A DNA stretch of 64,000 bases, taken from NCBI GenBank assembly GCA_963707215.1, contig CAVPPB010000003.1, positions 1,344,001 through 1,408,000 of the forward strand, given 5' to 3'. Within the stretch, counting starts at the first letter, position 1. Each line of letters starts with the position of its first letter. Below, one piece after another: positions 5,440 to 48,337 of this stretch. Source of the DNA: an uncultured Chloroflexia bacterium. GTDB taxonomy: Bacteria; Chloroflexota; Limnocylindria; Limnocylindrales; CSP1-4. A program made the position numbers and the translations under genes. Under the pieces are notes generated by a model, which did no database searches, had not been told where the DNA came from, and saw only the letters and a program-made list of their open reading frames with translations.

Positions 5440-5441
5440 GG

Positions 5442-12793: not shown

Positions 12794-12861
12794 CGGCCCC
12801 TCCTGGCGTGCGTTCGCACAGAGTCTACCGGCCGAGGAGGCCAAGGGAGACGAGGGCAGGG

Positions 12862-13212
12862 TCAGGCGCCCGCTGGCCGCAAACGGAAGGCGGGACCGCG
12901 CCCCAGCCCCTCCGACGGCGTGCCGTAGCGGAGGATCAGGGCCGTGACCGCCCGCGCGGCCTCGACCGTGTCCAGCGGCTCGGCGACCGCCTCCCAGGTC
13001 CGCTCGCCGACCGTGACGGTGCAATGAGGATGGGCCTCGAGGTTGCGGGCCCAGTCGGCCTTGGGGCCGCCGGCCGCCACGAGCAGGCTTCCGTCGGACT
13101 CCTCGACGAAGCCGACGGCCGCCGGGATCTCCCGGCCGCTGACGCGGCCCCGGGTCACGATCCGGGCGACCTTCCCCCAGCCGACCAGCTGGGTACCGAT
13201 CTCGTCCGTCAG
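12862..13212 (-). CDS. Nitroreductase family deazaflavin (F420)-dependent oxidoreductase-like protein
   Basis: TRGRVSG and ADWARNL.AHP motifs; start uncertain (CTG at 13212 overlapping the guaB stop, or GTG at 13158). Confidence 0.72.
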
Positions 13213-14387: not shown

Positions 14388-14463
14388 TGCGGGCCCTCCT
14401 CCGCGCTGTGCCGGGATGGGCCGAGTCTACCGCGCGAGGGCGCCCGGCGATTGGCAGCGCGGG

Positions 14464-15587: not shown

Positions 15588-15674
15588 GGCTCCAGCCTAC
15601 GCGAGCCCGTCGGGGCACGTGAGGGCCGGTCGGCATCGGACGGCGGGCGCGGCCCGGGTGATAATCCCGGCACG

Positions 15675-16517: not shown

Positions 16518-16545
16518 CGACCCGCTCCAGCGAAAGGACGGACCC

Positions 16546-32661: not shown

Positions 32662-33861
32662 ATGACGATCACGCCCCGGACCATCCTCCTGGTCGGCCTG
32701 TGGGCGGTCGCGGTCGGCATCGCCGTGGTCGACCTGCTCGTCGGGCTCTTCGCCCGACGCGGCGGCGTGAGCTTCGAGGGCACCGCCTGGACGCCGGCGC
32801 TGCAGGCCGGTTTCGCGACCGTCGGGGTGCTGATCCTGGTCAACCGTCCGAGGAACGTGATCGGCGGTCTCTGCCTGGCGATCGGGCTCGTGCTCGCCGC
32901 CAGCGCCGCCATGGCGGCGTACGCGACGCTCGACGACGTCCGCGGGGGGCCGGCGACCGCGGCGGGCTCGACGGCCGCCATGCTGTCCACGGCGCTCCGG
33001 AGTCTCGCGATCGTGCTGTACGTGCCGCTCCTCGCTCGCTTCCCCTCCGGCCATCTCCTGTCGCGGCGCTGGGCGGTCGCCGACGCACTGGTCCTCTTCT
33101 TCGTCGGCACGGTCGCGGTCGAGACCCTGAGACCGCATCGCGTCGAGCTCGAGTGGGTGCTGGCGTTCGAGAACCCGATCGGGATCCTGGGGCTCCCGGT
33201 GGCAGGGGAGCCCGCCCTGCAGGCGGCCGGGGGCTTCGCGGTGGCCGCGGCCATCCTCGTCACCGGGGCCGCGATCGTGCTCCGCTACCGGCGAGGAGGT
33301 CCGACCGAGCGAGCCCAGATCCGCTGGGTCGTCGCCGCGTATCTCGTGGCCATCGGCGCCATCGGGGCCGCCCTCGTGGCGCCGCGCCCGGTGTCCGACC
33401 TCGCCTGGCTCGTGCTCACGCTCGTGCCCGGGCTGATCCCCATCGCCATCGGGGTCGCCGTGCTGCGATACCGGCTGTACGAGATCGACCGGCTCATCAG
33501 CCGGACGATCGGCTGGGCAATCGTGACGGGAGTGCTGGTCGGCGCCTTCGTCTTCCTGGTGCTCGGGTTGACCTCGGTCGTCGAGCCCCTGTTCGGTGGT
33601 GGCAACACCCTCGCGATCGCCGGCTCCACGTTGGTCGTCGCGGCCCTCTTCAACCCGGTCCGGACGCGGGTCCAGCGAGCGGTCGACCGACGGTTCGACC
33701 GGGGCCGCTATGACGGCGAGCGGCTCCTCGCTGCCTTCACCGAGCGGCTGCGCGACGAGGTCGACCTCACCACGATCTCCGCTGATGTCCTCGCCACCGT
33801 CGATGCCGCGGTCCGACCGAGCTCTGCCGGTCTCTGGCTGCGGGGGAGCGGCCCCCGCTAG
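32662..33861 (+). CDS. Polytopic membrane sensor-like protein, paralog 1 (ends in partial GAF)
   Basis: RPRN.IG, FPSG, RAQIRW and conserved LRYRLYEID...LRDEVDL...GLWLR C-terminus; no kinase domain. Confidence 0.82.
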   Translation: MTITPRTILLVGLWAVAVGIAVVDLLVGLFARRGGVSFEGTAWTPALQAGFATVGVLILVNRPRNVIGGLCLAIGLVLAASAAMAAYATLDDVRGGPATAAGSTAAMLSTALRSLAIVLYVPLLARFPSGHLLSRRWAVADALVLFFVGTVAVETLRPHRVELEWVLAFENPIGILGLPVAGEPALQAAGGFAVAAAILVTGAAIVLRYRRGGPTERAQIRWVVAAYLVAIGAIGAALVAPRPVSDLAWLVLTLVPGLIPIAIGVAVLRYRLYEIDRLISRTIGWAIVTGVLVGAFVFLVLGLTSVVEPLFGGGNTLAIAGSTLVVAALFNPVRTRVQRAVDRRFDRGRYDGERLLAAFTERLRDEVDLTTISADVLATVDAAVRPSSAGLWLRGSGPR

Positions 33862-33883
33862 GCGCCACCCAGCGGCGAGGCCG

Positions 33884-36820
33884 CTACCAGGTCTCGAGCA
33901 TCCAGATCCCCGGCTCCAGCTCGCCGGGCATCCCGCCAACGTCGGCGAACGCGGTGACCGCCTCCCGCAGGTGCTCCAGCGCCTCGTCGTCCCGTCCGGC
34001 CGACCGCAGCATGTCGGCCAGGTTGTTCTCGACGGCCGCCTCGAGGTGGCGCTCGCCGGCGCGTCGTGCCGAGAACGACGCGCTCTCCGCAAGGGTCAAC
34101 GCCAGGTCGATGTCGCCCTGGTCGGCGACGACGAGCGCCAGCGCGTTGGCGGCCGCGATGGAGGCGACCGGATCGGGCAGCGTCGCCGCCGCAGCGAGGC
34201 TCCGCTCCAGGAGGGCCCGCGCGTCCTCGAGATCGCCGCGATCCCGGGCCAGCAGCCCGAGGATCCGATCGGCCTCGGCCTCCGCGGCGATGTCGCCCGT
34301 CGCCAGGGCACGGGCTTCGAGGGCCAGCGCCGCGGCCGACTCCGGCCGCCCGGACCGAGCCGCCGCGACCGCTTGATCCGCGAGGAGGTCGGATCGCCGC
34401 GGCCCCGTCCCCTCGCCGGCCTCGTCGAGAGCGGCCACGGCGGCGGCCAGGTGTCGCCCGGCGCGACCCGGATCGCCGCGTCGGAGATGGACCTGGCCCA
34501 GGCGATGCTCGATGGTGGCCAACCGGTCCGCGGGCGCCGACGCAGCCGCCGTCTCGAGAGTCGAGATGGCCTTCGGATAGTCCCCGGTCCGCATGGCGAC
34601 CTCCCCGATGGCCAGGTGCAGGCCGAGCACGTCTGGGTCGCCCAGGGCAAGGGCCGCCTCGAGATAGGCGAGGGCCTCCCGGTTGGCGAAGACCGCGCGG
34701 GCAAGATCGCCGGCCTCGCGGTAGGCGGCCGCAGCCTCGGGTCCGCGGCCCGCGGCCTGCTCATGGGTCGCGATACGGGCCAGGCGCCCGAGCTGGTCGA
34801 GGTCTCGACCGGCCGGCCCACGGAGCGCCTCGGCCGCCCGGCGATGGAGCAGGCGCCGCCTGACCACGCTCGTCGTCTCGTAGGCGACGTCGCGGAGGCG
34901 GGCATGGACGAAGTCGAACACCGGACCGCCGCTGCCAGTGGACTCGTTGACGATCCCCCGGCGCAGGAGCTCCTCGATGGCCATCACCGTCTCGTCGTCC
35001 GATCGACCACTCACGGCGCGGGCGGCCTCGGCTCCGAACGACCGCCCGATGACGGCCGCGGCCGCGACGACCTGCGTGGCCACGTCGCTGACCCCGGCCA
35101 GGCGTCCCTGGAGCAGTGCGCGGATGCCGGCCGGCATCGCGCCAGCGGGACGATCCGGCACGGCCAGGGCCTCGACGACGTAGAGCGGCAGCCCTTCGGC
35201 CTCGTCGACGAGGGCATCGAGGATGGCAGGGGAGGGCATCGGCCGGCCGGTCGTCACGATCGCATCGACGAGTTCGCGGACGTGGGCCTGCGCCAGCCGA
35301 TCGAGCCGGACGACGGCACCGGGCATCGCGTCCGCGGTCGCCACGAGTGGCTGGGCTCGCTCGTCGAGGTCCTCGCGGCGCCACGAGAGCAGCAGGGCGA
35401 TCGGGTGCGTCTCAAGTCGGCGGGCGAGGTAGGCGAGCGCCTCGAGCGTCGAGTCGTCGGCCCACTGGAGATCGTCGAGGCGGACGAGGACGGGCCGGGC
35501 CGGGCCGTCCGGGCCGTCCGGGCTGGCGATCGCACCGAGGCCCGCGGCGATCGCCTCGAGCAGTCGGAGCCGAGCTGCCGGACCCGATGCGGGACCGGGA
35601 CCGGTCGCCGGACCGGTCCGCTCGAGCTCCGGCACGAGCGTGGCGAGGAAGCCTCGATCCCGCTCGGAAAGCCGGGCAAGAGCGTCGGGACCATCAGCCA
35701 GGGCGAGCACCGACCGGAGCAGCCCGGCGATCGGGGCGAGCGCGATGCCCGCCTCGCCGGCATAGCAGCGCGCCGCGACCACGGGGTGATCCATCGTCGC
35801 CGCCCGCTCGGTGACGGCATCTGCGAGCCGCGTCTTGCCGATCCCCGCCTCGCCCTCGATGACCGCGAGCCGGCCGCTGCCTTCCCCGAGGGCGAGCGCG
35901 GCCGACACCCGCTCCAGCTCGTCAGCACGACCGATGAGCGGCGCGATCGAGGGGCGGCCCGGAGCCGCCGCGGCTGGCGCGGACGGCGATGTGGCGGCCT
36001 CGCCCGCGGCGGATCCTGGAGGCGACGCCGTCGCCAGCTCCCCCGCCAGGATCGCCTCGTACAGCTCCGTCGTCTCGGGAAGCGGTCCGACGCCCAGCTC
36101 ACGGTCAAGGATCGCGGCCGCGTCGCGGTACTGCCGGACCGCCGCGGCCGTCTCGCCGGAGCGTGCGTAGGCCTCCATGAGGGCTCGGTGGGCCGGCTCG
36201 TGCAGCGGGTCGAGCCCGAACCACCGCCGACCAGCCACGATCGCGCCGTCCCAGCCGCCGGCCGCGAGGCGCTCCCGAACGAGCCGCTCGAGCGCCCCGG
36301 CGAGCTCACGCTGATGGGCCTCGCGCTCGATCTCGATCCACTCATCCCACGCCTCGCTGTCGCGGAGCGAGAAGCCCTCCATGAGCCCCCCACGGTCGAG
36401 GGCCAGGGCAGCTTCGAGCGCCGCCTGGCAGTCCCCGCAGGCACGATCCGGCTCGTGGCCGTGACCCCGGGCCTGGGTCACCGCGTCGCGGAACCGGGCG
36501 ACGTCGAGCTCGATCGATCCTGGGTCGAGGGCGACCGACGTCCGGTCGATGGTCAGGCCGGTCCCATCGAGGGCCGAGTTGAGCACCGAGAGCGTCCGGC
36601 GCAGCGCGCCTCGGGCCTCCTGGTCGCCCGAATCCGGCCAGAGGAGCGCGCCCAGGGACTCGCGGGACGCGGGCCGGCCGGTCAGGGCCAGGTAGGCCAG
36701 CAGGGCGATGGCCTTCCGCGTGTCGACGGCCAGCGGTGCACCGCCGACGCGGATGTCGACCGGGCCCAGCAGGCGGATCGCGATCGTGCGCGTCGGGGGG
36801 GCCGGCGACCTCGGTGGCAT
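33884..36820 (-). CDS. SARP-type transcriptional regulator (wHTH, BTAD, STAND NTPase, TPR)
   Basis: IRLLG..KAIALLAYLA..RE.L..LLWP, DPLHE.AHR.LM, Walker A GEAGIGKT, LDDLQWAD, GLPLY, F.H and helical repeats; ATG 36820 with TATCGT 7 nt upstream. Confidence 0.9.
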   Translation of the reverse strand: MPPRSPAPPTRTIAIRLLGPVDIRVGGAPLAVDTRKAIALLAYLALTGRPASRESLGALLWPDSGDQEARGALRRTLSVLNSALDGTGLTIDRTSVALDPGSIELDVARFRDAVTQARGHGHEPDRACGDCQAALEAALALDRGGLMEGFSLRDSEAWDEWIEIEREAHQRELAGALERLVRERLAAGGWDGAIVAGRRWFGLDPLHEPAHRALMEAYARSGETAAAVRQYRDAAAILDRELGVGPLPETTELYEAILAGELATASPPGSAAGEAATSPSAPAAAAPGRPSIAPLIGRADELERVSAALALGEGSGRLAVIEGEAGIGKTRLADAVTERAATMDHPVVAARCYAGEAGIALAPIAGLLRSVLALADGPDALARLSERDRGFLATLVPELERTGPATGPGPASGPAARLRLLEAIAAGLGAIASPDGPDGPARPVLVRLDDLQWADDSTLEALAYLARRLETHPIALLLSWRREDLDERAQPLVATADAMPGAVVRLDRLAQAHVRELVDAIVTTGRPMPSPAILDALVDEAEGLPLYVVEALAVPDRPAGAMPAGIRALLQGRLAGVSDVATQVVAAAAVIGRSFGAEAARAVSGRSDDETVMAIEELLRRGIVNESTGSGGPVFDFVHARLRDVAYETTSVVRRRLLHRRAAEALRGPAGRDLDQLGRLARIATHEQAAGRGPEAAAAYREAGDLARAVFANREALAYLEAALALGDPDVLGLHLAIGEVAMRTGDYPKAISTLETAAASAPADRLATIEHRLGQVHLRRGDPGRAGRHLAAAVAALDEAGEGTGPRRSDLLADQAVAAARSGRPESAAALALEARALATGDIAAEAEADRILGLLARDRGDLEDARALLERSLAAAATLPDPVASIAAANALALVVADQGDIDLALTLAESASFSARRAGERHLEAAVENNLADMLRSAGRDDEALEHLREAVTAFADVGGMPGELEPGIWMLETW

Positions 36821-36852
36821 CCACGCAACGATACCGCCCTTGCCGTGCGGTT

Positions 36853-36885
36853 CGTAACGTTTCCCGGACCCCCGTCCGCCAGGGT
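36853..36885 (+). promoter_or_regulatory. CGTAACG box (copy 2), in the region divergent from the SARP regulator
   Basis: CGTAACG-tttc-CCGGACC; CAGGGT at +27. Confidence 0.7.
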
Positions 36886-37021
36886 GGCTGTGCCTGGCCG
36901 GGGGGCCATGGTGGGGCCCGGCGAACGGAGGTGTCGTGGGGTCCGCAAGCACACGAGTCGACCGGAGGGTTGCCGTACCGTCGTACGGTGGGGGGGCCGT
37001 ACCGAGCCCGGCGTGCGTCCC

Positions 37022-38323
37022 ATGAGCCGACCCAGCGACCCGCACCCTGCGCCGCCTCGACACACCAGCCCAGCACCTGTCGCTGCTCCGAGCATCCCGA
37101 CGCGACGACGCCCGACGACCTGCATCGCGGTCGCGCTCCTCGCCCTGGCGCTCGGCATGATCGCCTTCCTGGCGGCCTCCTCGCTCGTGCTGCCGGGCGC
37201 GGATCGACTCCCGGGCCGACCCGAGGGGATCGTGGACGTCCTGTGGATCGCGATCACGCTGGGAGCGTTCGTGTCGCTGCCGACGATGGGGGCGATCCTT
37301 GCCATCCTCCGGCCACGCAACCCGATCGGCTGGCTCCTGCTCGGCAGCGGCGTCGCGATCATCCTGGGTACGTCCGGGCCGGAGTACGTCGACCGGAGCC
37401 TTCTCCTCGGGGCCGAGCTGCCCGGCGACCGCATCGTGGACTGGCTCTCGGCACGGTCCGAAGGCCTCGGGTTCATGCTCGTGGCCGTCTGGATCCCGTT
37501 GGTCTTCCCGGACGGGCGGCTGCCCGGCCCCAGGTGGCGACTCGTGGCCATCGTTGCGGCGCTCGCGATGGTGACGAGCGTCGTTGCCGGCGCCCTGACG
37601 GTGCACGGGGACGGCCAGTGGGACCCCGCATTCCCCAACCCGCTGGCGGCCGAAGGGTGGCTGGCTGACCTCGCCGTCGTCCTGGTGGATGTCGGGAACC
37701 TGGTCCTCCTGGTCTGTATCCCGCTTGCAGCGGCATCGGTGATCGTCCGCTTCCGGCGGTCCCGCGGCGCCGAGCGGGAACAGATGAAGTGGTTCCTGGC
37801 GGCGGCGTCGGTCCTCGCGGGCGCATTCCTCCTGATGGCCGGGGTCCAGCAGGACTGGACCTACATCCTCACCCTGGCCAGCTTCTCGCTCCTCCCCATC
37901 GCCATCGGCATCGCCGTCCTGCGGTACCGCCTGTACGAGATCGACCGGCTCATCAGCAAGTCCATCGGCTGGGCCATCGTGACGGGGTTGTTGGTCGGGG
38001 CCTTCGCCCTCCTGGTCCTCGGACTCCAGACCGTGCTCGAGCCCCTCACCGGGGGCAACACCCTGGCGATCGCCGGCTCGACCCTCGTGGTGGCGGCCCT
38101 GTTCCAGCCCCTCCGGACCCGGGTCCAGCGGGCCGTCGACCGGCGGTTCGACCGGAGCCGCTACGACGGGGAGCGGCTGCTCGCCGCCTACTCCGAGCGC
38201 CTGCGCGACGAAGTGGACCTCTCGACGATCAGTGCCGACGTCCTCGCCACCGTCGATGCCGCGGTCCGGCCGAGCGCTGCCGGCCTCTGGCTGCGGGAGC
38301 GACCCGGGGGCGGGCGGCCCTGA
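37022..38323 (+). CDS. Polytopic membrane sensor-like protein, paralog 2
   Basis: RPRNPIGW, FPDGRLP..RWR, NP, REQMKW and the same conserved C-terminus. Confidence 0.85.
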   Translation: MSRPSDPHPAPPRHTSPAPVAAPSIPTRRRPTTCIAVALLALALGMIAFLAASSLVLPGADRLPGRPEGIVDVLWIAITLGAFVSLPTMGAILAILRPRNPIGWLLLGSGVAIILGTSGPEYVDRSLLLGAELPGDRIVDWLSARSEGLGFMLVAVWIPLVFPDGRLPGPRWRLVAIVAALAMVTSVVAGALTVHGDGQWDPAFPNPLAAEGWLADLAVVLVDVGNLVLLVCIPLAAASVIVRFRRSRGAEREQMKWFLAAASVLAGAFLLMAGVQQDWTYILTLASFSLLPIAIGIAVLRYRLYEIDRLISKSIGWAIVTGLLVGAFALLVLGLQTVLEPLTGGNTLAIAGSTLVVAALFQPLRTRVQRAVDRRFDRSRYDGERLLAAYSERLRDEVDLSTISADVLATVDAAVRPSAAGLWLRERPGGGRP

Positions 38324-38387
38324 GCTCCGCTCGTCTCGACGGGATCCATGCAGGCATCGTCACGGTCTGCGAGACCCGCCGCGAACT

Positions 38388-38420
38388 CGTAACGCTTCCC
38401 CGACGCTCCCGGACCACGAT
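38388..38420 (+). promoter_or_regulatory. CGTAACG box (copy 3)
   Basis: CGTAACG-cttc-CCCGACG; CACGAT at +27. Confidence 0.7.
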
Positions 38421-38471
38421 GTCGGCAGCCGGCCGCGGGGGGCGGCCGGCATCAGCACCGAGGAGCAGGCC

Positions 38472-38942
38472 ATGAGCTGGTCGATGGAGCACATCCGCGA
38501 GGCACCCGTGGCGCCAGGCGACGTGTTCGCCGCCTACACGGACCCGTCCACCTGGAGCGCCTGGGGGCACAACACGCGCTCAGCTCGGCTCAAGGGTCCG
38601 TTCCGCGAAGGAGCCGTCGTCCGCGTCGAGGCCGGCTACCGCCGCACCTGGCCGGTCCTCGTCCGGATGGTCGTGCCGGGGTGCACGGTCGTGTGCGAGG
38701 TCCGCCCGCCCGGGGTCACGATCGTCTCGACCTACGACGTGCGGCCGACAGAGGAGGGCGCCCGCCTTCGGCACGTCATCACCATCTCCGGCCGGCTCGA
38801 GCTCGCCTACCGACCACTGCGACCGCTGTACACGCGGCTGCTCGCGAAGGAGACGAGGCGCCTCGCCGAACACGTCACCGGGACCGGTGCCCGCGCCGAG
38901 GAGACGCGGGAGACGGCCGCGGACGGCCCACGACTGTCGTAA
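38472..38942 (+). CDS. SRPBCC/START family protein
   Basis: VFAAYTD..TW..W and GPF..G pattern; GAGGAG RBS. Confidence 0.75.
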   Translation: MSWSMEHIREAPVAPGDVFAAYTDPSTWSAWGHNTRSARLKGPFREGAVVRVEAGYRRTWPVLVRMVVPGCTVVCEVRPPGVTIVSTYDVRPTEEGARLRHVITISGRLELAYRPLRPLYTRLLAKETRRLAEHVTGTGARAEETRETAADGPRLS

Positions 38943-38970
38943 CGTTCCGCGAACACTCCACGCCGAGGAT
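38938..38970 (+). promoter_or_regulatory. CGTAACG box (copy 4)
   Basis: CGTAACG-ttcc-GCGAACA; GAGGAT at +27. Confidence 0.62.
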
Positions 38971-39072
38971 GCGTCCCGTGAACGGTCGATATCGAAGCCG
39001 TGCTGCAGCGCCGGCCAAGGCGTCCACGTACCTTCCGTTGACGGGTGGCCCGACCATCGGGTGCCTGGTCGC

Positions 39073-39156
39073 ATGAGCGCCGACGTCCTCGCGACCGTCG
39101 ATACCGCGGCCCGACCGACCGCTCCCGGCCCCTGGCTGCTGGGGTCCGAGCCATGA
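39073..39156 (+). pseudogene. Remnant of the conserved sensor C-terminus (27 aa)
   Basis: MSADVLATVDTAARPTAPGPWL matches ISADVLATVDAAVRPTAAGIWL; stop overlaps the next ATG (ATGA). Confidence 0.75.
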
Positions 39157-40373
39157 CGGCTGATCGGGGTCGTCTCCGCGCCGTCTCCGCGATCCTCATC
39201 ATCGCCTCGCTCGCGGGGTCGCTGGCGTTCACTATCGTCCTCGACGCGGTCGTGCTCGCCGGGTCGACGTCCTTCGACACGCCCATCCTCTCCCTGTTGC
39301 TCACGGCGATCGCGCTGGCGTTCTCGATCGTCGGGGCCGCGGTCGAGTGGCGGCGGCCCGGTCACGCAATCGGCCGCCTCCTGCTGCTCTCGGGACCGTT
39401 GTTCGCGTTCCTGGCGATGGGCTGGACGTTGGGAGGCTCTCTCGCTGCCCCCATCGACCCTGCCGTACATGCCCTGTTCGACTGGAGCGTGACCGTGCTC
39501 TCCTACCCGGGGATGGCAGTGATCGCAGGCTGGCTTCCGCTCCTGTTCCCCTCAGGAACGCTCCCAGGTCCGCGCTGGCGAGCTCCGGCGGCCGCGCTGG
39601 TCTTCGTGTCGTCGGTGAGCCTCCTCGCGCTTGCGACGCGGCCCGGGCCCCTAGTCGAGGATGGCCGAGCAAACCCGCTCGGCGTCGAAGCCTGGCCTCC
39701 CGCCCTCCAGCTGCTCGTCGACTCGCTGCTGCTTCAGCTCGTGCTGTTGTTCGTGCTCGCGGTCGTCGGACTCGCCGTCCGCTACCGGCGCGGGGACGAG
39801 GTCGCGCGCCACCAGATCCGCTGGCTGCTCGCGGCCGTGGGAACCGTGGCCGTGGGGTTCGTCGGTGCCCTCGTCGAGGGCCTCGTCCGCACGGACGAGG
39901 GGGTCTTCGTATCGATCATCGTGGCGTTCGTTGGCGTCCTGTTCATGCCCATCGCCATCGGCATCGCCGTCCTGCGGTACCGGCTGTACGAGATCGACCG
40001 GCTCATCAGCCGGACGATCGGCTGGGCGATCGTGACCGGGCTGCTGGTCGGGGCGTTCGCCCTCCTCGTGCTCGGGCTCCAGGCCGTGGTCGAGCCGATC
40101 ACCGGCGGGAACACGCTGGCGATCGCCGGGTCCACCCTCGTCGTGGCCGCCCTCTTCAACCCGGTTCGGACGAGGGTCCAGCGGGCCGTCGATCGACGGT
40201 TCGACCGCTCCCGGTACGACGGGGAGCGGCTCCTCGCCGCCTTCGGGGAGCGCCTTCGCGACGAGGTCGACCTGACCGCCATCAGGGCCGATGTCCTCGC
40301 CACCGTCGATGCCGCGGTCCGACCAAGCGCTGCCGGCCTCTGGCTGCGGGAGCGACCGGGGGGCCGGGCGTGA
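39153..40373 (+). CDS. Polytopic membrane sensor-like protein, paralog 3
   Basis: RRPGHAIG, FPSG.LPGPRWR, NPLG, RHQIRW and the conserved C-terminus. Confidence 0.85.
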   Translation: MTADRGRLRAVSAILIIASLAGSLAFTIVLDAVVLAGSTSFDTPILSLLLTAIALAFSIVGAAVEWRRPGHAIGRLLLLSGPLFAFLAMGWTLGGSLAAPIDPAVHALFDWSVTVLSYPGMAVIAGWLPLLFPSGTLPGPRWRAPAAALVFVSSVSLLALATRPGPLVEDGRANPLGVEAWPPALQLLVDSLLLQLVLLFVLAVVGLAVRYRRGDEVARHQIRWLLAAVGTVAVGFVGALVEGLVRTDEGVFVSIIVAFVGVLFMPIAIGIAVLRYRLYEIDRLISRTIGWAIVTGLLVGAFALLVLGLQAVVEPITGGNTLAIAGSTLVVAALFNPVRTRVQRAVDRRFDRSRYDGERLLAAFGERLRDEVDLTAIRADVLATVDAAVRPSAAGLWLRERPGGRA

Positions 40374-41554
40374 GGGTGCCGGGCGTGAACGACCGCGCGG
40401 CACTCCGGATCGCGTCGACCGCGATCGTGCTGCTGCTGCTGGCCGGCACGGCCATCCTTGCCGTCATCTGGCCGCCCGTCCGGCAGCCCACCTGGGGGTT
40501 CACCGGCTTCTCTGGCCTGCTGGCAGGAGCCGTGGGCCTCATGGGAGCGGTCATCGTGTACCGTCGGCCGGGCAACCGCGTGGGTTGGGTCCTGCTCCTC
40601 GTCGGCCTCATGAGCGCGATCCAGTTCGTCGTGGACCTGACCCCACTCCTGGTCATCCACCTGGGCGGCGCGGGCACGCCGGCCGAGACCTGGACGAGCT
40701 GGCTCCCGAACGCCATCTGGGTCCCGTCGGTCACCCTGATCGGCTACCTGTTGCTGATCTACCCTGACGGGCGCCCGCCTGACGGACGCTGGTCGGCCCT
40801 CGGTCCGCTGCTGCTCGTGGTCGCGATCCTGACGCTGGTGGCGATCCTGGTGACCCCCGGCGACCTGCGGAACTACCCGGGCGTCGCCAACCCGACGGGC
40901 CTGCCCGGTCTCCCCGGGGCCCTCGTGGCCATCGTCGACCCCCTGTACCTGGGGACGCTCGTGGCCGCAGCGCTGTCCCTGGTCGTCCGCTGGCGCCAGG
41001 CCCCGCCGGTCGTCCGGGCCCAGCTGAAGTGGCTCGCCCTTGCCGGGGTCCCGTTCGCGATCGCCACCAGCCTGTCGGTCGTCTCCCGGGAGGCCCAACT
41101 CATGGCGATCCTCTCCGGCGGGCTGATGCCGGTAGCCATCGCCATGGCGATCCTGCGCGACCGCCTGTACGAGATCGACCGCATCATCAGCCGGTCGATC
41201 GGCTGGGCGATCGTCACCGGGTTGCTCATCGCGACGTTCGCCGTGTTGATCCTTGGCCTCCAGGCGGTGCTCGAGCCCCTGACCGGAGGCAACACCCTGG
41301 CGATCGCCGCCTCGACCCTGATCGTCGCTGCCCTCTTCGACCCGGTCCGGACCCGGGTCCAGCGGGCGGTCGACCGCCGCTTCGACCGTTCCCGGTACGA
41401 CGGCGAGCGCCTCCTGGCCGCCTTCGGGGAGCGGCTGCGCGACGAGGTGGACCTCACGACGATCTCCGCCGATGTCCTCGCCACCGTCGATGCCGCGGTC
41501 CGACCGACCGCTGCCGGCATCTGGCTGCGGGAGCGATCGGGGGGCGGAGGGTGA
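40370..41554 (+). CDS. Polytopic membrane sensor-like protein, paralog 4
   Basis: RRPGNRVGW, YPDGRP..RW, NP.G, RAQLKW and the conserved C-terminus; GTGA overlap (alternative start 40385). Confidence 0.85.
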   Translation: MRVPGVNDRAALRIASTAIVLLLLAGTAILAVIWPPVRQPTWGFTGFSGLLAGAVGLMGAVIVYRRPGNRVGWVLLLVGLMSAIQFVVDLTPLLVIHLGGAGTPAETWTSWLPNAIWVPSVTLIGYLLLIYPDGRPPDGRWSALGPLLLVVAILTLVAILVTPGDLRNYPGVANPTGLPGLPGALVAIVDPLYLGTLVAAALSLVVRWRQAPPVVRAQLKWLALAGVPFAIATSLSVVSREAQLMAILSGGLMPVAIAMAILRDRLYEIDRIISRSIGWAIVTGLLIATFAVLILGLQAVLEPLTGGNTLAIAASTLIVAALFDPVRTRVQRAVDRRFDRSRYDGERLLAAFGERLRDEVDLTTISADVLATVDAAVRPTAAGIWLRERSGGGG

Positions 41555-42818
41555 GGGGGCAGATGCGGCAGCGGACCGTCAGGGACAGCCGAGCGGCCCG
41601 CGGTTCGTCGACTGCCGCCGCGGAGCCATCGATCGGCTGGCCCGGACGACTGCTGCTGATCGCTCTGCTGGCTGGCGGCACGTTCATCGGTGTCGCCTGG
41701 GCATTCGACCCGTTCGCGCTCCTCTTCTGGGCATCGTACGCCTCGACCGCAGCCCTCCTCATCGTTCGGCGACCCCGGAACGTCATCGGCTGGCTGTTGC
41801 TCGCGATCGCGTTCGGGTTCATCGGAACCACGTCGCGACCCGAGATCGACCTGGCCGCGCTGGAGCAGGGCGTCGGGGCGATCGGCGACGAGCTATGGAT
41901 GTGGGTCGGAAGCTGGGTCGGCGCCGCGACCTTCATCGGCTTCTTCACGTTGATGCTCGTGTTCCCGAGCGGTCGGCTTCCTGGCGGGCGCTGGCGCCGA
42001 CCGTCGATGGCGCTGATCACGGTCGGGAGCCTCGTCGTCGTCCTGGCCGCCTTCGCGCCGACCGTCACGTTCAGTCCCGATGGCGGCAGCGCCGAGATCG
42101 TCGCTCCCAACCCGGTCGCCATCCTTCCCGACCTGCCGATCTGGTCGATCGTCCCGAACAGTGGTGCCGTGACGATCGTTCCGATCCTGGTCCTGCTGCC
42201 GATCGGCGTCGTCACGTTGGCCATGCGCTACCGACGGTCAAGCGGCGCCTTGAAGCTCCAGCTGCGCTGGCTGGTCGCGGCCGTTGCCTTCATGGTCGGG
42301 GCGGTCGTGGCAGGCCTGACGATGCTGGCCATCGCCGGCGAGGACGCATGGTACGCATGGGTCCCGGCGATCATCGCCTACCCGACCGTACCCATCGCCA
42401 TCGGCATCGCGGTCCTCCGGTACCGGCTGTACGAGATCGACCGGCTCATCAGCCGGACGATCGGCTGGGCGATCGTGACGGGACTGCTGGTGGGAGCCTT
42501 CGCCCTCCTGGTGCTGGGGCTCCAGGCCGTCGTCGAGCCGCTCACCGGCGGCAACACCCTGGCCATCGCCGGCTCGACCCTCGTCGTGGCGGCCCTCTTC
42601 AACCCGGTCCGCACCCGGGTCCAGCGGGCGGTCGACCGCCGCTTCGACCGTTCCCGGTACGACGGCGAGCGCCTCCTGGCCGCCTTCGGGGAGCGGCTGC
42701 GCGACGAGGTGGACCTCACGACGATCTCCGCCGACGTCCTCGCCACCGTCGATGCCGCGGTCCGACCGACCGCTGCCGGCATCTGGCTGCGGGAGCGATC
42801 GGGGGGCGGAGGGTGAGG
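41341..42818 (+). repeat. 216-bp near-identical direct repeat (41341-41556 and 42603-42818)
   Basis: By-eye alignment shows 2 mismatches; related copies lie at the 3' ends of paralogs 1-3. Confidence 0.9.
41551..42816 (+). CDS. Polytopic membrane sensor-like protein, paralog 5
   Basis: RRPRNVIGW, FPSGRLP..RWR, NP, QLRW and the conserved C-terminus; GTGA overlap (alternative ATG 41563). Confidence 0.85.
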   Translation: MRGQMRQRTVRDSRAARGSSTAAAEPSIGWPGRLLLIALLAGGTFIGVAWAFDPFALLFWASYASTAALLIVRRPRNVIGWLLLAIAFGFIGTTSRPEIDLAALEQGVGAIGDELWMWVGSWVGAATFIGFFTLMLVFPSGRLPGGRWRRPSMALITVGSLVVVLAAFAPTVTFSPDGGSAEIVAPNPVAILPDLPIWSIVPNSGAVTIVPILVLLPIGVVTLAMRYRRSSGALKLQLRWLVAAVAFMVGAVVAGLTMLAIAGEDAWYAWVPAIIAYPTVPIAIGIAVLRYRLYEIDRLISRTIGWAIVTGLLVGAFALLVLGLQAVVEPLTGGNTLAIAGSTLVVAALFNPVRTRVQRAVDRRFDRSRYDGERLLAAFGERLRDEVDLTTISADVLATVDAAVRPTAAGIWLRERSGGGG

Positions 42819-42824
42819 ACGCTT

Positions 42825-42857
42825 CGTAACGGGTCCCGGACGGTCGACTGGTGGACT
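42825..42857 (+). promoter_or_regulatory. CGTAACG box (copy 5)
   Basis: CGTAACG-ggtc-CCGGACG; TGGACT at +27. Confidence 0.7.
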
Positions 42858-42900
42858 GCGTCCAGGCAGACCGCCGGAGGGACCACCACAGGAGGCCACC

Positions 42901-43314
42901 ATGCGCCGCGTCCTCGCTCGCTCGATCCTCATCGGGTCGATCGCCGCAACCACCCTGGCAGGGACCGCCCTGGGCCACGAGTGCTTCATCTACAGCCGGT
43001 CGGACACCGGCGACCTCGCCGCGGGCAGCCACTCGAAGGTCTGGCTGACCGTCGGCTCCACGGCCGACATCTTCCTGCTCGTCGAGGAGGAGCTCCAGCT
43101 GCCGCCGCTCTCACCCTCGCAGCTCGATTGGGCGGTCGACGCCGGGAAGGCGGCGGGCCTGCCGAACCAGTTCACGATCTTCATCGGCAAGAAGACGATC
43201 GCCGAGGGCACCCCGGCGATGGAGAAGCATGCCGCCGACGGCAGGGGCGTCGATCACGCCTTCGATTGGCTGCCGGTCGTCGTCGACATCTACTTCCAGG
43301 CGCTCGCGCACTGA
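42901..43314 (+). CDS. Small secreted hypothetical protein
   Basis: Sec-type signal peptide ending ALG/HECF; AGGAGG RBS. Confidence 0.75.
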   Translation: MRRVLARSILIGSIAATTLAGTALGHECFIYSRSDTGDLAAGSHSKVWLTVGSTADIFLLVEEELQLPPLSPSQLDWAVDAGKAAGLPNQFTIFIGKKTIAEGTPAMEKHAADGRGVDHAFDWLPVVVDIYFQALAH

Positions 43315-43495
43315 CCGAGCCTGACCCCCGGGCCCGGGCGGGCCGGCTGCCCAGCCGAGCGTCCCGTCCGTCCGGGCCCACGCCACCTCCAGCGTCCGCC
43401 GGATCGTCCTTCCGGCGGACGCGTCGCGTCCACGCGGGCCCGATGTCGACCACCACCACCGACCGCGTGACGGATCGTCCCGATGACCCTTGGAC

Positions 43496-43528
43496 CGTAA
43501 CGCTTCCCGGACGCACAGGGAGGAACCT
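43496..43528 (+). promoter_or_regulatory. CGTAACG box (copy 6)
   Basis: CGTAACG-cttc-CCGGACG; GAACCT at +27; ATG at +39. Confidence 0.72.
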
Positions 43529-43534
43529 CCGGCC

Positions 43535-45247
43535 ATGACGTTCATCCAGTCGCTGCGCCGCACGGTCGGACTCGGCGGTCGATCCGCCCCGGAGCCCGAC
43601 GCCTCCAGCGAGCCCGACGAGGGAGCCTCGGCGGCCGAGGCCCAGGTCGATGGCGTCCCGGCGGAGCCGGAGGCACCGGCGGGGTCCGCCGGGATCGGCC
43701 CGGTCGAGATCGCCCCCGACGACCCGCTGCTCGCGCTGCTCCAGTCCACCGACGGCGTGATCGACGTCGACCGGGTCACGATCGACTCGCCCGCCCTGGA
43801 CGCTCTCCGCGCGCAGGGCATCGCCGTCATCGTCCCGCTCGTCGCCCAGGGCGAGCTCGTCGGGGCGCTGTACCTGGGTGAGCGCCTGTCGGAGCAGGAC
43901 TACTCGACCGACGACCGTCGACTGCTCGCCTCGCTCGCCGCCCGCACAGCCCCGGCGATCCGCGTCGCCCAGCTGGTCCGCGAGCAGGCCACCGAGGTCG
44001 CCGCGCGCGAGCGCATCGAGCAGGAGCTCCAGGTCGCGACCCTCATCCAGCAGCAGTTCCTGCCCCGGAGCCTGCCGGAGCTCCCCGACTGGCAGGTCGC
44101 GGCGTACTACGGCCCGGCGCGCGCCGTCGGCGGCGACTTCTACGACTTCATCGAGCTGCCCGACGGGCGCATCGGCGTCGTCGTCGGCGACGTGACCGAC
44201 AAGGGCGTCCCGGCCGCCCTGGTCATGGCTCGGACCCACTCGGTCCTGCGGGCCGAGGCGCCGCGCCTCATCGAGCCGGGAGCGGTGCTCGCGCGGGCGA
44301 ACGACATCCTCTGCGAGGAGATGCCGTCGAACATGTTCGTCACCTGCCTCTACGGCGTCCTCGAGCCGACCACGGGTCGCTTCGTCTTCGCCAACGCCGG
44401 GCACAACCTTCCGTACGTCCGGTCCGCGGGCACGGTCGACGAGCTGCGGGCGACCGGGATGCCGCTCGGCCTGCTGCCGGGGATGGCGTACGAGGAGGCC
44501 GAGGGAACGATCGAGGGCGGCCAGGGCCTCCTCCTCTACTCGGACGGGTTCGTGGAGGCCCACTCGCCGACCGGCGAGATGTACGGCTTCCCGCGGCTCC
44601 GGGACGCCTACGGCGCCTTCGACGGCGACACTGGCAGCGAGCTGGTGGATCGGCTGCTCGACGACCTCCACGGCTTCACCGGCGGCGGCTGGGAGCAGGA
44701 GGACGACCTGACGCTGGTCGCCCTGCGGCGATCGCGCGGCACGGGCTTCGAGGCCCTGGCCGACGAGACCGATGCGGCCGACGCGGCCGACCCTGTGGCC
44801 ACCGCGGCGAGCGTCCGCGCCCTCCTCGACCTGGAGGTCCCCGGCGCCCTCGGCAACGAGCGGATCGCCATGGACCGGGTCGCCGAGGCGGTCGCTCCCC
44901 TCGGGCTTCCCGCGGACCGCCTCGAGCGACTCAAGACGGCGGTCTCCGAGGCGGCGATGAACGCCATCGAGCACGGCAGCCAGGGCCGGCCGGAGGTCCC
45001 TATCCGGGTCCACGTGTCGGCGACCGACGCTGCGCTCCGGGTCCGGGTCGCCGACATGGGCCTGGGCGGCGACATCCCCCTGGGCTCGGCTGAGGTCCCG
45101 GACCTGGAGGCGAAGCTGGCCGGCGAGCAGAAGCCGCGCGGCTGGGGCCTCTTCCTGATCGAAGCGATGGTCGACGAGATGGCCGTCGAGCAGACCGACG
45201 AGGGCCAGGCGGTCGTCCTGACCCTCCACCTGAAGGGAGCGTCCTGA
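43535..45247 (+). CDS. Partial GAF plus SpoIIE/RsbU PP2C phosphatase plus RsbW-like HATPase fusion
   Basis: VPLVAQGELVGALYLG GAF strands; VGGDFYD, GDVTDKG, NAGH, YSDG, DDLT; SEAAMNAIEHG, DMG and GWGLFLI. Confidence 0.92.
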   Translation: MTFIQSLRRTVGLGGRSAPEPDASSEPDEGASAAEAQVDGVPAEPEAPAGSAGIGPVEIAPDDPLLALLQSTDGVIDVDRVTIDSPALDALRAQGIAVIVPLVAQGELVGALYLGERLSEQDYSTDDRRLLASLAARTAPAIRVAQLVREQATEVAARERIEQELQVATLIQQQFLPRSLPELPDWQVAAYYGPARAVGGDFYDFIELPDGRIGVVVGDVTDKGVPAALVMARTHSVLRAEAPRLIEPGAVLARANDILCEEMPSNMFVTCLYGVLEPTTGRFVFANAGHNLPYVRSAGTVDELRATGMPLGLLPGMAYEEAEGTIEGGQGLLLYSDGFVEAHSPTGEMYGFPRLRDAYGAFDGDTGSELVDRLLDDLHGFTGGGWEQEDDLTLVALRRSRGTGFEALADETDAADAADPVATAASVRALLDLEVPGALGNERIAMDRVAEAVAPLGLPADRLERLKTAVSEAAMNAIEHGSQGRPEVPIRVHVSATDAALRVRVADMGLGGDIPLGSAEVPDLEAKLAGEQKPRGWGLFLIEAMVDEMAVEQTDEGQAVVLTLHLKGAS

Positions 45248-45594
45248 TGGAGGGCGTCATGACGGCACTGACGAGCCGGGTCGAAGCCGGCCCCGAGACG
45301 GGACGGATCGTCCTCGCGGGACGGCTCGACCGGGAGGGCGACGCTGTCCTGGCCTCGGCCTACGCAGAGGCGACGGCGGCCGGCGCCGCGGAGCTGGAGA
45401 TCGACTTCGGCGACGTCGCCTACATCAACAGCACGGGCATCGCGCTCGTCGTCCGGCTGCTGGCCGAGGCCCGCCGCGACGGGCGCCCGGTCCGCGCCAC
45501 GGGCCTGTCCGACCACTACCGGGAGATCTTCCGGATCACCCGGCTGTCCGACTTCATGACGATCGTGGACGACGAGCCAGGAGGTGAGCGATGA
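45247..45594 (+). CDS. STAS anti-sigma factor antagonist 1
   Basis: G.LD, DF..V.YINSTG phospho-Ser motif and IF.ITRL. Confidence 0.9.
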   Translation: MEGVMTALTSRVEAGPETGRIVLAGRLDREGDAVLASAYAEATAAGAAELEIDFGDVAYINSTGIALVVRLLAEARRDGRPVRATGLSDHYREIFRITRLSDFMTIVDDEPGGER

Positions 45595-45935
45595 CGGCGA
45601 CGACGGTGCAGGTCGAGTCGCGGGGCGACACGGCGATCCTCCGCATCGGCGGCGATGTGACCGCCGCCAGCGACGGAGCGTTCAGCGAAGCGTACGCGAC
45701 CGCGACCGACGGCGGAGCCCGGGCCCTGGTCCTCGACTTCTCCGGCATGGAGTACATGAACAGCGGCGGGATCGGGCTGCTCGTGACGATGCTCGTCCGG
45801 ACCCAGCGGGCCGGCCAGCGACTCCTCGCCGCCGGTCTGTCCGAGCACTACTGCCAGATCCTCTCGCTCACCCGCCTCGACGAGGCGATCGCGATCCACG
45901 ACACGACCGACGCCGCGCTGGCGGCGACGGCGTAG
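45591..45935 (+). CDS. STAS anti-sigma factor antagonist 2
   Basis: LDFSGMEYMNSGG motif and LTRL. Confidence 0.9.
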   Translation: MTATTVQVESRGDTAILRIGGDVTAASDGAFSEAYATATDGGARALVLDFSGMEYMNSGGIGLLVTMLVRTQRAGQRLLAAGLSEHYCQILSLTRLDEAIAIHDTTDAALAATA

Positions 45936-48265: not shown

Positions 48266-48337
48266 GGATGCGGGCGCCGGCGGGTGAGCCGTCCGCGGCC
48301 GCGCGCCCCGTCGCCGGCTGCGTACCGTCGTCGGCCG

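What the first reader, a model, noticed from the sequence alone, without database searches (positions are those of the whole stretch)
32662..45935. Candidate split-GAF signalling system: five membrane sensor heads and one cytoplasmic PP2C/HATPase core
Seen: five membrane proteins (32662, 37022, 39153, 40370, 41551) have no catalytic domain. Each ends a few residues after ...GERLLAAFGERLRDEV-DL-TTISADVLATVDAAV-RP-AAGIWLR. The SpoIIE protein at 43535 has no TM and, after an acidic linker, starts PDDPLLALL..VIDV..ALDALRAQG-IAVIVPLV-AQG-ELVGALYLG-ERLSEQDYSTDDRRLLASLAARTAPAI. Known: GAF domains begin helix-helix-strand and end with a VPL...G.L.L hairpin and a helix, so the two fragments look like non-overlapping, complementary parts of one fold. 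Inference: any sensor could complete the GAF in trans, giving a many-inputs-to-one-output partner-switching module acting on the two STAS proteins. I know of no described system like this, but I could not search.
Basis: partly seen in the sequence, partly recalled or inferred. Interest (0 to 1): 0.9.

Follow-up and report, generated by a model that had tools for sequence, protein, structure and literature searches.

The report
GAF domain split between sensors and phosphatase
Five membrane sensor proteins each carry the first helix and strand of a GAF domain, and one neighbouring soluble phosphatase-kinase carries the rest, so the sensors probably plug into the enzyme by completing its fold, an arrangement that is widespread in soil bacteria and that I did not find described.

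Summary
Five multi-helix membrane proteins with no catalytic domain all stop 5-8 residues after a near-identical tail. A single TM-less SpoIIE/PP2C-HATPase_c_2 protein begins with only the C-terminal ~60% of a GAF profile.

Both pieces map side by side, without overlap, onto natural single-chain relatives. In one of these, Pfam GAF spans the break point. The split is conserved:
- 0 of 80 related loci have the two parts in one ORF.
- 259 of 262 tails end within 40 residues of a stop.
- 63 of 66 loci with enough upstream DNA carry same-strand headless sensors.
- Each of ten related genomes has one phosphatase and 2-26 sensor matches.

A complex model scores 0.80 (best control 0.00). It places the tail strand between two strands of the phosphatase's partial sheet. 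Modelled alone, the phosphatase lacks that helix and strand, and the tail strand is coil.

Binding is predicted, not measured. Split halves of a known fold can pass such a test by likeness, and a covariation test gave no support. Six literature searches found no description.

Verdict: a real and widespread new variant of partner-switching signalling, with many sensors feeding one phosphatase-kinase, most likely coupled by fold complementation.

The parts
32662..33861 (+). Sensor 1 (399 aa): variable multi-helix membrane head, conserved C-terminal module, and a GAF helix a1 + strand b1 fragment at nt 33763-33843
37022..38323 (+). Sensor 2 (433 aa); GAF a1-b1 fragment at nt 38216-38296
39153..40373 (+). 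Sensor 3 (406 aa); GAF a1-b1 fragment at nt 40269-40349; its stop overlaps the start of sensor 4 (GTGA)
40370..41554 (+). Sensor 4 (394 aa); GAF a1-b1 fragment at nt 41450-41530; its stop overlaps the start of sensor 5 (GTGA)
41551..42816 (+). Sensor 5 (421 aa); cytoplasmic tail from nt 42598; GAF a1-b1 fragment at nt 42712-42792. This is the tail used in the complex model
43535..45247 (+). Soluble SpoIIE/PP2C-HATPase_c_2 protein (570 aa), the only ortholog in the genome
43535..43576 (+). Conserved 14-residue N-terminal peptide of the phosphatase (M1 and R9 in at least 90% of 99 homologs); function unknown. It is followed by a ~40-residue acidic, disordered linker (43577-43696)
43697..43984 (+). 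Partial GAF (aa 55-150): the b2 to a5 part, lacking a1 and b1. Its last helix (aa 125-175, nt 43907-44059) runs on into the PP2C domain
44159..44731 (+). PP2C/SpoIIE phosphatase domain (aa 209-399)
   Evidence: E 2.5e-52, profile 1-191 of 192; conserved Asp residues
44867..45223 (+). HATPase_c_2 domain, an RsbW/SpoIIAB-like kinase or anti-sigma module (aa 445-563)
45247..45594 (+). STAS protein 1 (115 aa); its start overlaps the SpoIIE stop by 1 nt
45591..45935 (+). STAS protein 2 (114 aa); its start overlaps the STAS1 stop (ATGA)
45946..46782 (+). Conserved fifth operon member (278 aa), weakly DUF1990-like; role unknown, a candidate output or target
   Evidence: present in 61 of 65 loci with at least 4 kb downstream

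Best explanation
This is a naturally split GAF domain that serves as the coupling between membrane sensors and a partner-switching enzyme.

Each of the five paralogous sensors has three parts: a fast-diverging membrane head, a strongly conserved two-helix membrane module, and a cytoplasmic tail. The tail consists of a juxtamembrane helix, GAF helix a1 and GAF strand b1. The single soluble protein supplies the remaining GAF elements (b2, a2, b3, a3, b4, b5, a5). Its a5 continues as a ~50-residue helix into a PP2C phosphatase, which is followed by an RsbW-like kinase domain.

Inferred mechanism: the tail of any one sensor inserts its b1 strand between b2 and b5 of the incomplete sheet and packs a1 on a5. 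This tethers the enzyme to that sensor and orders the GAF/linker helix. Ordering of that kind is the element known in other PPM phosphatases to set phosphatase activity through linker-mediated dimerisation. The phosphatase/kinase balance then sets the phosphorylation state of the two STAS proteins, which pass the signal to a still unknown target (possibly the conserved DUF1990-like protein, or a sigma factor encoded elsewhere).

Shown by sequence and computation: the fission point, its conservation, the n:1 gene ratio, the operon, and a confident predicted interface.

Inferred: physical binding; whether docking is constitutive or signal-dependent; the direction of regulation; and the substrates.
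For: (a) Collinear, non-overlapping mapping onto a natural single-chain relative, P0032. Sensor 5 aa 286-415 aligns to P0032 309-441 (48% identity). SpoIIE aa 36-402 aligns to P0032 433-797 (54% identity). Pfam GAF covers P0032 414-538, which is profile positions 1-132 of 133, so it spans the break. The NCBIfam PrsK profile gives the same picture: sensor 3 maps to positions 122-346 and SpoIIE to positions 370-461.

(b) Six compact fusions were found: P0032, P0040 and L099-L102. In these, 14-51 residues separate the tail from the GAF remainder.

(c) The split is conserved. In 80 genome loci, 0 are fused. 259 of 262 tails end within 40 aa of a stop. 63 of 66 loci with at least 3 kb upstream have a same-strand headless sensor upstream, and in 44 of 66 it is directly adjacent. 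The median is 3.5 sensors per locus, range 0-8. Downstream, STAS is present in 65 of 65 loci and the DUF1990-like gene in 61 of 65.

(d) Among 41 related genomes, 10 have both parts, 4 have only weak sensor-like matches, 0 have SpoIIE only, and 27 have neither. Each of the 10 has exactly one strong SpoIIE ortholog.

(e) Headless sensors with a different membrane head, the P0032 type, stop at the same point, P0032 residues 439-450.

(f) The complex model scored ipSAE 0.80 in each of three runs, with a best control of 0.00. The runs agree in at least 95% of contacts and the partner's pLDDT is at least 69. This mark was reached by 58 of 80 solved complexes and 2 of 110 mismatched pairs. Tail residues 125-133 pair with SpoIIE aa 108-116 and also touch aa 55-59. 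The tail helix lies on the last GAF helix.

(g) Modelled alone, SpoIIE has no a1 or b1 and residues 1-51 are disordered. Modelled alone, the sensor's last 17 residues are coil at pLDDT ~50.

(h) Tail conservation without a cis partner: across 256 tails, P125 is 0.99, W131 0.99 and R133 0.94 conserved. Within helix a1, the predicted contact positions average 0.62 conservation against 0.28 for the others.

(i) Among the window's paralogs, tails are 81-92% identical and heads 14-43%. Synonymous third positions in most of the tail module are only modestly above background (0.56-0.70 against ~0.45). This points to purifying selection rather than only gene conversion.
Against: There is no experiment. 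The complex score is the model's own confidence. Halves of a known fold can pass by likeness to solved GAF structures, and my own alignments were used, so the calibration holds only roughly.

A covariation test (MI-APC over 76 loci and 256 tails) gave no support. 0 of the top 50 pairs fell in the predicted interface against 5.9 expected, and 2 of the top 100 against 11.8 expected. The interface columns are nearly invariant, so the test has little power.

AlphaFold2 gives the partial GAF high confidence alone (pLDDT about 90), so it does not show that the piece is unfolded without a partner.

In this window the last sensor is not directly next to SpoIIE, because a 137-aa ORF lies between them. 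Sensors 1 and 2 are separated from the others by unrelated genes.

3 of 66 loci lack an upstream sensor. 4 of 14 genomes with sensor-like matches lack the SpoIIE ortholog, although those matches are weak and do not reach the tail end. Related genomes are not independent samples.

The last 30 codons of the tails show raised synonymous identity (0.87), so some gene conversion is likely.
Confidence: 0.7

Rival explanations
1. The split is real, but the halves do not reunite. The tail is a vestige, or a homodimerisation or membrane-proximal element of sensors that signal in some other way or act as scaffolds. The SpoIIE N-domain is then a self-sufficient, degenerate GAF-like dimerisation module.
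For: No covariation was found between tail and SpoIIE. The partial GAF is modelled with high confidence alone. The complex pass may reflect fold memory. In some loci two sensors lie in a single open frame, so a tail can be internal.
Against: Gene adjacency and co-occurrence are tight. The b1 strand motif and the hydrophobic face of a1 are strongly conserved although nothing in cis can use them. The tail strand is predicted to be coil when alone. Fused relatives build one GAF from the same two pieces. Controls in the complex test scored 0.00.
Confidence: 0.15
2. The socket of SpoIIE is normally filled by its own conserved N-terminal peptide, either in cis or swapped between two SpoIIE chains, as an autoinhibitory plug. 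Sensor tails act only by competing with this plug, or not at all.
For: A 14-residue N-terminal peptide is conserved across 99 homologs and is tethered by a ~40-residue flexible linker. The compact fusions lack this peptide and linker.
Against: AlphaFold2 leaves the peptide disordered (pLDDT 26-28) and does not place it in the sheet.
Confidence: 0.1
3. Artefact: the sensors are truncated pseudogenes or assembly or frameshift products of ordinary sensor-GAF-PP2C genes.
For: Some long database proteins (P0028, P0014, P0009, P0011) look like joins of neighbouring genes made by frame errors (read by eye). This shows that errors do occur in such assemblies.
Against: The same stop position is seen in 259 of 262 tails from 80 loci of many genera and two phyla. 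Coding-type GC3 and overlapping start/stop codons are present. There are five sensors for one SpoIIE. SpoIIE has its own conserved N-terminus.
Confidence: 0.02

Closest known systems
Single-chain membrane sensor-GAF-PP2C proteins (P0032, P0040; loci L099-L102)
   Same: They have the same conserved membrane module, juxtamembrane helix, GAF and PP2C. Identity is 48% to the sensor tail module and 54% to SpoIIE.
   Different: Everything is in one polypeptide, with 14-51 residues between b1 and the rest of the GAF. They lack the N-terminal peptide and acidic linker. P0032 has no HATPase_c_2 domain. In the PP2C tree, fused forms lie at the midpoint-rooted base and also next to split forms. At least 2 changes of state are forced by supported branches. 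The root is not established.
RsbT-RsbU, and GAF- or PAS-linked PPM phosphatases generally (B. subtilis general stress response)
   Same: A partner protein binds the N-terminal regulatory region of a PPM phosphatase and acts through a helical linker. N-terminal GAF domains joined to PPM domains by coiled-coil linkers are described as a general design (PMC12143880; passages found by term search were read).
   Different: Here there is no RsbT and no RsbU N-domain. The partner is a membrane sensor, and the proposed contact completes a fold from within rather than docking two folded proteins.
Rv1364c (M. tuberculosis) and OsaC (S. coelicolor) multidomain partner-switching proteins
   Same: A PPM phosphatase is fused to an anti-sigma/kinase-type domain and works with STAS domains. 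The domain make-up is as listed in PMC12143880 (passage read).
   Different: Their sensor domains (PAS, GAF) are complete and in cis. They are not split and have no array of membrane sensors. I did not compare the sequences directly.
PrsK-type membrane histidine kinases with a juxtamembrane GAF (NCBIfam TIGR02916)
   Same: The order membrane region, then GAF, is shared. Sensor 3 and SpoIIE map to consecutive parts of the profile, positions 122-346 and 370-461.
   Different: Scores are far below the cut-off (19.9 and 17.7 bits against 300). The output there is a histidine kinase in one chain.
Donor-strand complementation in chaperone-usher pili (recalled, not searched)
   Same: A beta-strand from another polypeptide fills a missing strand of an incomplete sheet.
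   Different: That is a structural assembly system, not signalling, and is unrelated in sequence and fold.

Membership tests
GAF domain (Pfam PF01590 / PF13492 / PF13185) | Match to the profile above the curated cut-off | tested here: met
   For SpoIIE, GAF_3 scores 29.8 bits (cut-off 27) and GAF 22.9 bits (cut-off 22.4). GAF_2 scores 27.1, below its cut-off of 28.6. The sensors give no GAF hit.
GAF domain (Pfam PF01590 / PF13492 / PF13185) | One polypeptide covers the whole fold, from first helix and strand to last helix | tested here: not met
   SpoIIE covers only profile positions 49-127 of 129 (GAF_3) and 57-133 of 133 (GAF). Its model has no a1 or b1. The closest solved GAF domains (DevS/DosT) align only at their last ~50 residues.
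GAF domain (Pfam PF01590 / PF13492 / PF13185) | The missing N-terminal helix and strand exist and are homologous to GAF positions 1 to about 28 | tested here: met
   Sensor 5 aa 388-415 aligns to P0032 414-441, which is the start of P0032's full-length Pfam GAF match (profile 1-132). The pieces therefore lie on separate proteins.
PPM/PP2C phosphatase (SpoIIE, PF07228) | Full-length domain match with conserved acidic metal-binding residues | tested here: met
   E 2.5e-52, profile 1-191 of 192. D201, D204, D219, D337, D390 and D391 are invariant in 99 homologs. Their catalytic role is recalled, not tested.
RsbW/SpoIIAB-type kinase or anti-sigma domain (HATPase_c_2, PF13581) | Domain match; equivalog status | tested here: inconclusive
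   The Pfam match scores 80.3 bits against a cut-off of 27.4. NCBIfam RsbW and SpoIIAB equivalogs are far below cut-off, for example 51.6 against 135. It is a family member but not an ortholog of either.
Partner-switching system | STAS antagonist proteins encoded with the phosphatase and kinase | tested here: met
   Two STAS proteins, translationally coupled. They are conserved downstream in 65 of 65 loci. A Ser in the position of the usual phosphorylation motif is visible in both; the motif itself is recalled.
Partner-switching system | A defined target (sigma factor or other) released by the switch | not tested
   No sigma factor lies in the conserved operon. The conserved fifth gene is only weakly DUF1990-like: Pfam E 0.027, below cut-off, and atlas cluster names. 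The rest of the genome was not searched for targets.
RsbT-RsbU activation module | RsbU N-terminal domain and an RsbT partner | tested here: not met
   No such Pfam or NCBIfam hits were found on any of the eight proteins. The system may work like this module but is not a member.
HisKA_7TM sensor region (PF16927) | Profile match above cut-off | tested here: not met
   Only sensor 2 gives a hit, at 19.7 bits against 28.6. The atlas's nearest named cluster is HisKA_7TM at 0.84, a lead only. The fold search gave only weak GPCR-like matches, with query TM-scores of 0.32 or less.

The most novel reading that the evidence does not exclude
This may be a general plug-and-socket signalling architecture. 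Interchangeable membrane sensor heads fall into at least two groups with no BLAST-detectable likeness, with up to 26 sensor matches in one genome. All end in the same helix-strand plug, and ligand-controlled insertion of that plug into the unfinished GAF socket of a single PP2C-kinase is itself the signal-transmitting step. Folding of a domain across two proteins would then replace the covalent sensor-effector link. Many inputs would compete for, or combine on, one output, with the conserved N-terminal peptide of the enzyme acting as a second tether or a competing plug.
Probability: 0.4. Interest if true: 0.9.

Novelty: new variant of a known kind. Interest (0 to 1): 0.8.

Why it matters
Bacterial sensors are normally joined covalently to their output domains, or they dock as folded proteins. 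Here a small domain is cut in its middle, the cut is kept over many genera in Chloroflexota and Actinomycetota, and one output enzyme faces several to many sensors.

If the halves reunite, this is a natural case of fold complementation used for signal integration. It would explain thousands of roughly 400-residue 'hypothetical' membrane proteins: at least 5819 clusters at E <= 0.001. It would also explain about 2000 SpoIIE proteins annotated as RsbU/RsbW-like. It would give a simple peptide-plus-domain system in which to study how GAF and linker ordering controls PPM phosphatases. It also suggests a natural design for modular synthetic receptors.

Tried and rejected
(1) I considered that the conserved Trp of the tail (WLR) is an adaptation special to split forms. 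Rejected: four of the six fused forms (L099-L102) also have Trp there, while P0032 and P0040 do not.

(2) G354:C370 and G410:C136 looked fused in the genome search. On reading the ORFs, both have a stop between the sensor and SpoIIE, so they are split.

(3) The 'longer' hits P0028, P0014, P0009 and P0011 were not counted as fusions. By eye they keep the SpoIIE N-terminal peptide, or change frame within the tail, and so look like joins of neighbouring genes.

(4) Covariation between the tail and SpoIIE gave no enrichment at the interface. Rows dropped before that count: L016-L018 (near-copies of the window), 5 loci with an identical GAF part (88 down to 83), and loci without a qualifying tail (down to 76).

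(5) A fold search of the sensor model against the PDB gave only weak GPCR-like helical-bundle matches: one hit at E <= 0.001, query TM-scores of 0.32 or less and rmsd above 8.9 A. No fold was assigned.

(6) The S-component/5TMR receptor paper (PMC11109136, passages read) concerns another membrane domain and does not bear on this one.

(7) The small ORF 42901-43314 is not part of the system. It has 0 matches in the 80 loci, none in the 10 relatives' loci and no Pfam hit.

(8) Literature:
- 'split GAF' gave 0 occurrences in the 14 papers listed of the 19 that hold at least 2 of the 3 search terms.
- 'strand complementation' together with 'GAF domain' gave 0 papers.
- Searches on fold complementation or in trans, Limnocylindria or partner-switching, gene fission or separate polypeptides, and incomplete, partial or truncated GAF found nothing relevant in their listings.
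- The library lacks most subscription journals, and supplements were closed.

(9) I did not use the search of protein representatives, the look-up of sequencing runs or read laying.

Selections made before counts and models:
- A1 holds the 43 tail hits that covered query positions 1-9 through at least 130.
- A3 holds 99 sequences: P0006 plus 98 of the other 119 proteins listed, chosen by eye for full coverage.
- A4 holds P0005, its four paralogs and 103 of the 120 listed.
- In some searches a tail was counted only if its BLAST match reached position 125 of 140.
- For the tree, matches shorter than 300 residues were dropped and identical rows merged (92 down to 87).
- In one search only 2 candidates per genome were scored.
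Full report
**What is in the window**

The window has about 73% G+C. ORF listing, translation and GC3 frame plots give this gene order on the + strand:
- arginase-family gene, 30054-31088
- nucleoside hydrolase, 31165-32610
- sensor 1, 32662-33861
- a SARP-type regulator (BTAD-AAA-TPR) on the opposite strand, 33884 to about 36800
- sensor 2, 37022-38323
- an SRPBCC/polyketide-cyclase-like gene, about 38350-38942
- sensors 3, 4 and 5: 39153-40373, 40370-41554, 41551-42816
- a 137-aa ORF with a signal-peptide-like start, 42901-43314
- SpoIIE/PP2C-HATPase_c_2, 43535-45247
- two STAS genes, 45247-45594 and 45591-45935
- a 278-aa gene, 45946-46782

The start and stop codons of sensors 3/4 and 4/5, of SpoIIE/STAS1 and of STAS1/STAS2 overlap, which fits co-translation. 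The genome holds exactly five sensors and one SpoIIE ortholog, all in this locus. It is 3.26 Mb in 5 contigs and 84.8% complete.

None of the five sensors has a catalytic domain in Pfam or NCBIfam. All stop 5-8 residues after a shared ...WLR motif. Their last ~140 residues are 81-92% identical, and their heads are only 14-43% identical.

Synonymous third positions in most of the conserved module are only moderately more alike (0.56-0.70) than in the heads (~0.45). They reach 0.87 in the last 30 codons. Selection on the protein, with some gene conversion at the very end, is therefore the likeliest cause.

The SpoIIE protein matches GAF profiles only over their C-terminal part: GAF_3 positions 49-127 of 129 and GAF positions 57-133 of 133.

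**The two pieces are halves of one GAF**

A natural 797-residue relative, P0032, contains both pieces in one chain. Sensor 5 residues 286-415 align to P0032 309-441 (48% identity). SpoIIE residues 36-402 align to P0032 433-797 (54% identity). Pfam GAF covers P0032 414-538, profile positions 1-132 of 133, across the junction.

So the sensor tail (aa 388-415 of sensor 5) corresponds to GAF positions 1 to about 28, which is helix a1 plus strand b1. SpoIIE supplies the rest.

The PrsK profile independently places sensor 3 at positions 122-346 and SpoIIE at 370-461. The nearest solved GAF domains (DevS/DosT) align only with the hairpin and last helix, at their own residues ~96-150.

In all I found six compact fusions: P0032, P0040 and L099-L102, with 14-51 residues between the tail and the remainder. 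Several other long database proteins look like erroneous joins of neighbouring genes and were not counted (read by eye).

**The split is conserved and widespread**

Among 41 related genomes, ten have a strong ortholog of the SpoIIE N-part (E <= 2.4e-40), exactly one each. All ten have sensor matches, from 2 to 26 per genome. Four genomes have only weaker sensor-like matches that do not reach the tail end. None has SpoIIE without sensors, and 27 have neither. Related genomes are not independent.

In those ten genomes the gene order is n sensors, SpoIIE, STAS, STAS, then the homolog of the 278-aa gene. There are variants: 13 tandem sensors on one contig, and two sensors lying between the STAS genes in another genome.

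A scan of one genome per species found 540 relatives of the N-part. I analysed the best 80 loci. By their record titles they come from Candidatus Limnocylindrales/Limnocylindria and other Chloroflexota, and from Thermoleophilia, Solirubrobacterales and other Actinomycetota. The closest record, at 97% identity, is a Ca. Limnocylindrales MAG. In these 80 loci:
- 0 have the tail and the GAF remainder in one ORF.
- 259 of 262 tails end within 40 residues of a stop.
- 63 of 66 loci with at least 3 kb upstream have a same-strand headless sensor upstream.
- In 44 of 66 the sensor is directly adjacent.
- The median is 3.5 sensors per locus.
- STAS genes follow in 65 of 65 loci with at least 4 kb downstream, and the DUF1990-like gene in 61 of 65.

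Database searches list at least 5819 sensor-like clusters, which are named 'hypothetical protein' where a name is given (two are called 'MFS family permease'). They also list 2091 proteins like the SpoIIE N-part, mostly ~550 residues.

Headless sensors with the different membrane head of P0032 end at the same point, P0032 residues 439-450. Some lie next to SpoIIE genes that begin at P0032 positions 426-456. In one search only two candidates per genome were scored.

**Structure predictions**

Modelled alone with 99 homologs, SpoIIE has a disordered N-terminus (residues 1-51, pLDDT below 50). Its GAF part has only helices 64-71 and 86-93, a hairpin at 96-104 and 107-115, and a helix at 125-175 that runs into the PP2C domain. 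There is no first helix or first strand.

Modelled alone with 107 homologs, sensor 5 has a confident membrane domain. After it come a long helix made of the last membrane helix plus the juxtamembrane helix (337-385), a helix at 389-404 (GAF a1), and a final 17 residues of coil at pLDDT ~50.

It gave ipSAE 0.80 in all three runs against 0.00 for the best of three controls. The runs agree in at least 95% of contacts and the partner's pLDDT is at least 69. This mark was reached by 58 of 80 solved complexes and 2 of 110 mismatched pairs.

The closest contacts pair tail residues 125-133 antiparallel with SpoIIE 108-116. The tail also touches SpoIIE 55-59, and its helix lies on the last GAF helix. 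This places b1 between b2 and b5, which is the strand order I recall for GAF and PAS folds. I did not test that order here.

The tool warns that halves of a split gene tend to pass by likeness to solved structures. That applies here, so the result shows compatibility, not binding.

**Further tests**

Within tail helix a1, the ten predicted contact positions are much more conserved than the nine others across 256 tails: 0.62 against 0.28, one-sided Mann-Whitney p = 0.0005. The strand motif is almost invariant, with P at 0.99, W at 0.99 and R at 0.94. A fragment that has no fold of its own and is predicted disordered when alone is thus under strong selection. This argues for a binding partner.

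A mutual-information test for covariation between the tails and the SpoIIE of the same locus gave no support: 0 of the top 50 pairs fell in the interface against 5.9 expected. The interface columns barely vary, so the test is weak, but it is a negative result.

A quick maximum-likelihood tree of the GAF-remainder plus PP2C region had 87 rows. With midpoint rooting, two pairs of fused forms lie at the base. P0032 lies beside a split form (support 93), and P0040 sits on a long branch among split forms. The fewest changes of state is 3, and supported branches force at least 2. Fusion and fission have therefore happened more than once. The direction is not established and the sampling is biased towards split forms.

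**Likely mechanism**

The enzyme keeps the conserved acidic residues of PPM phosphatases and a full HATPase_c_2 domain. Both STAS proteins have a Ser at the place of the usual phosphorylation motif (the motif is recalled).

Published work on RsbU and other PPM phosphatases reports control through N-terminal regulatory domains, including GAF. Helical linkers from those domains order and dimerise the phosphatase when a partner binds (PMC12143880, passages read).

By analogy, I propose that a sensor tail completes the GAF, orders helix a5 and the linker, and so sets the phosphatase/kinase balance on the STAS proteins at the membrane. I cannot tell whether docking is permanent, giving a non-covalent receptor, or is triggered by the signal. 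With five sensors for one enzyme, and up to 26 sensor matches elsewhere, the sensors must share or compete for the enzyme. The target of the STAS proteins is unknown.

**Comparison and novelty**

The parts are known: GAF, PP2C, an RsbW-like kinase and STAS. What differs is the way the input is connected. The GAF domain is cut inside the fold and the cut is conserved. One enzyme serves many sensors. The sensor heads are interchangeable while the plug stays the same.

Six full-text searches found no description.

I rate it a new variant of a known kind, with high interest. The main reservation is that the central claim of physical complementation rests on prediction and comparative genomics.

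Noticed in passing
window 43535-43576: The SpoIIE protein starts with a 14-residue peptide that is conserved across 99 homologs (M1 and R9 in at least 90%). A ~40-residue acidic, disordered linker follows. The compact fused relatives lack both. It could be a second tether to the sensor or a competing plug.
   Followed up: partly
window 45946-46782: A 278-aa protein with no significant Pfam hit (DUF1990 at E 0.027) whose atlas neighbours are named DUF1990. It is conserved right after the STAS pair in 61 of 65 loci. It is a possible output or target of the switch.
   Followed up: partly
window 33884-36800 (- strand): A large SARP-type regulator (BTAD, AAA_16, TPR) sits on the opposite strand between sensors 1 and 2. 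It is not present in the related loci I mapped.
   Followed up: no
window 38350-38942: An SRPBCC/Polyketide_cyc2-like gene lies between sensors 2 and 3.
   Followed up: no
window 42901-43314: A 137-aa ORF with strong coding GC3 and a signal-peptide-like N-terminus lies between sensor 5 and SpoIIE. It has no Pfam hit and no counterpart in the 80 scanned loci or in the 10 relatives' loci that were BLASTed.
   Followed up: partly
window 46825-48351: This FAD/amine-oxidase-like ORF loses coding-type GC3 at about 47650, where another frame (47828-48265) takes over. This could be a frameshift, a pseudogene or two genes.
   Followed up: no
L008 (G024:C97) 1-17000; L006 (G012:C15): One relative has 13 tandem headless sensors on a single contig, and two of them share one open frame. 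Another has two sensors inserted between the two STAS genes.
   Followed up: partly
(family f2, 16 genomes of about 1.1 Mb): The small-genome sister family in the same order has neither sensors nor the SpoIIE ortholog (0 of 16 for both).
   Followed up: no
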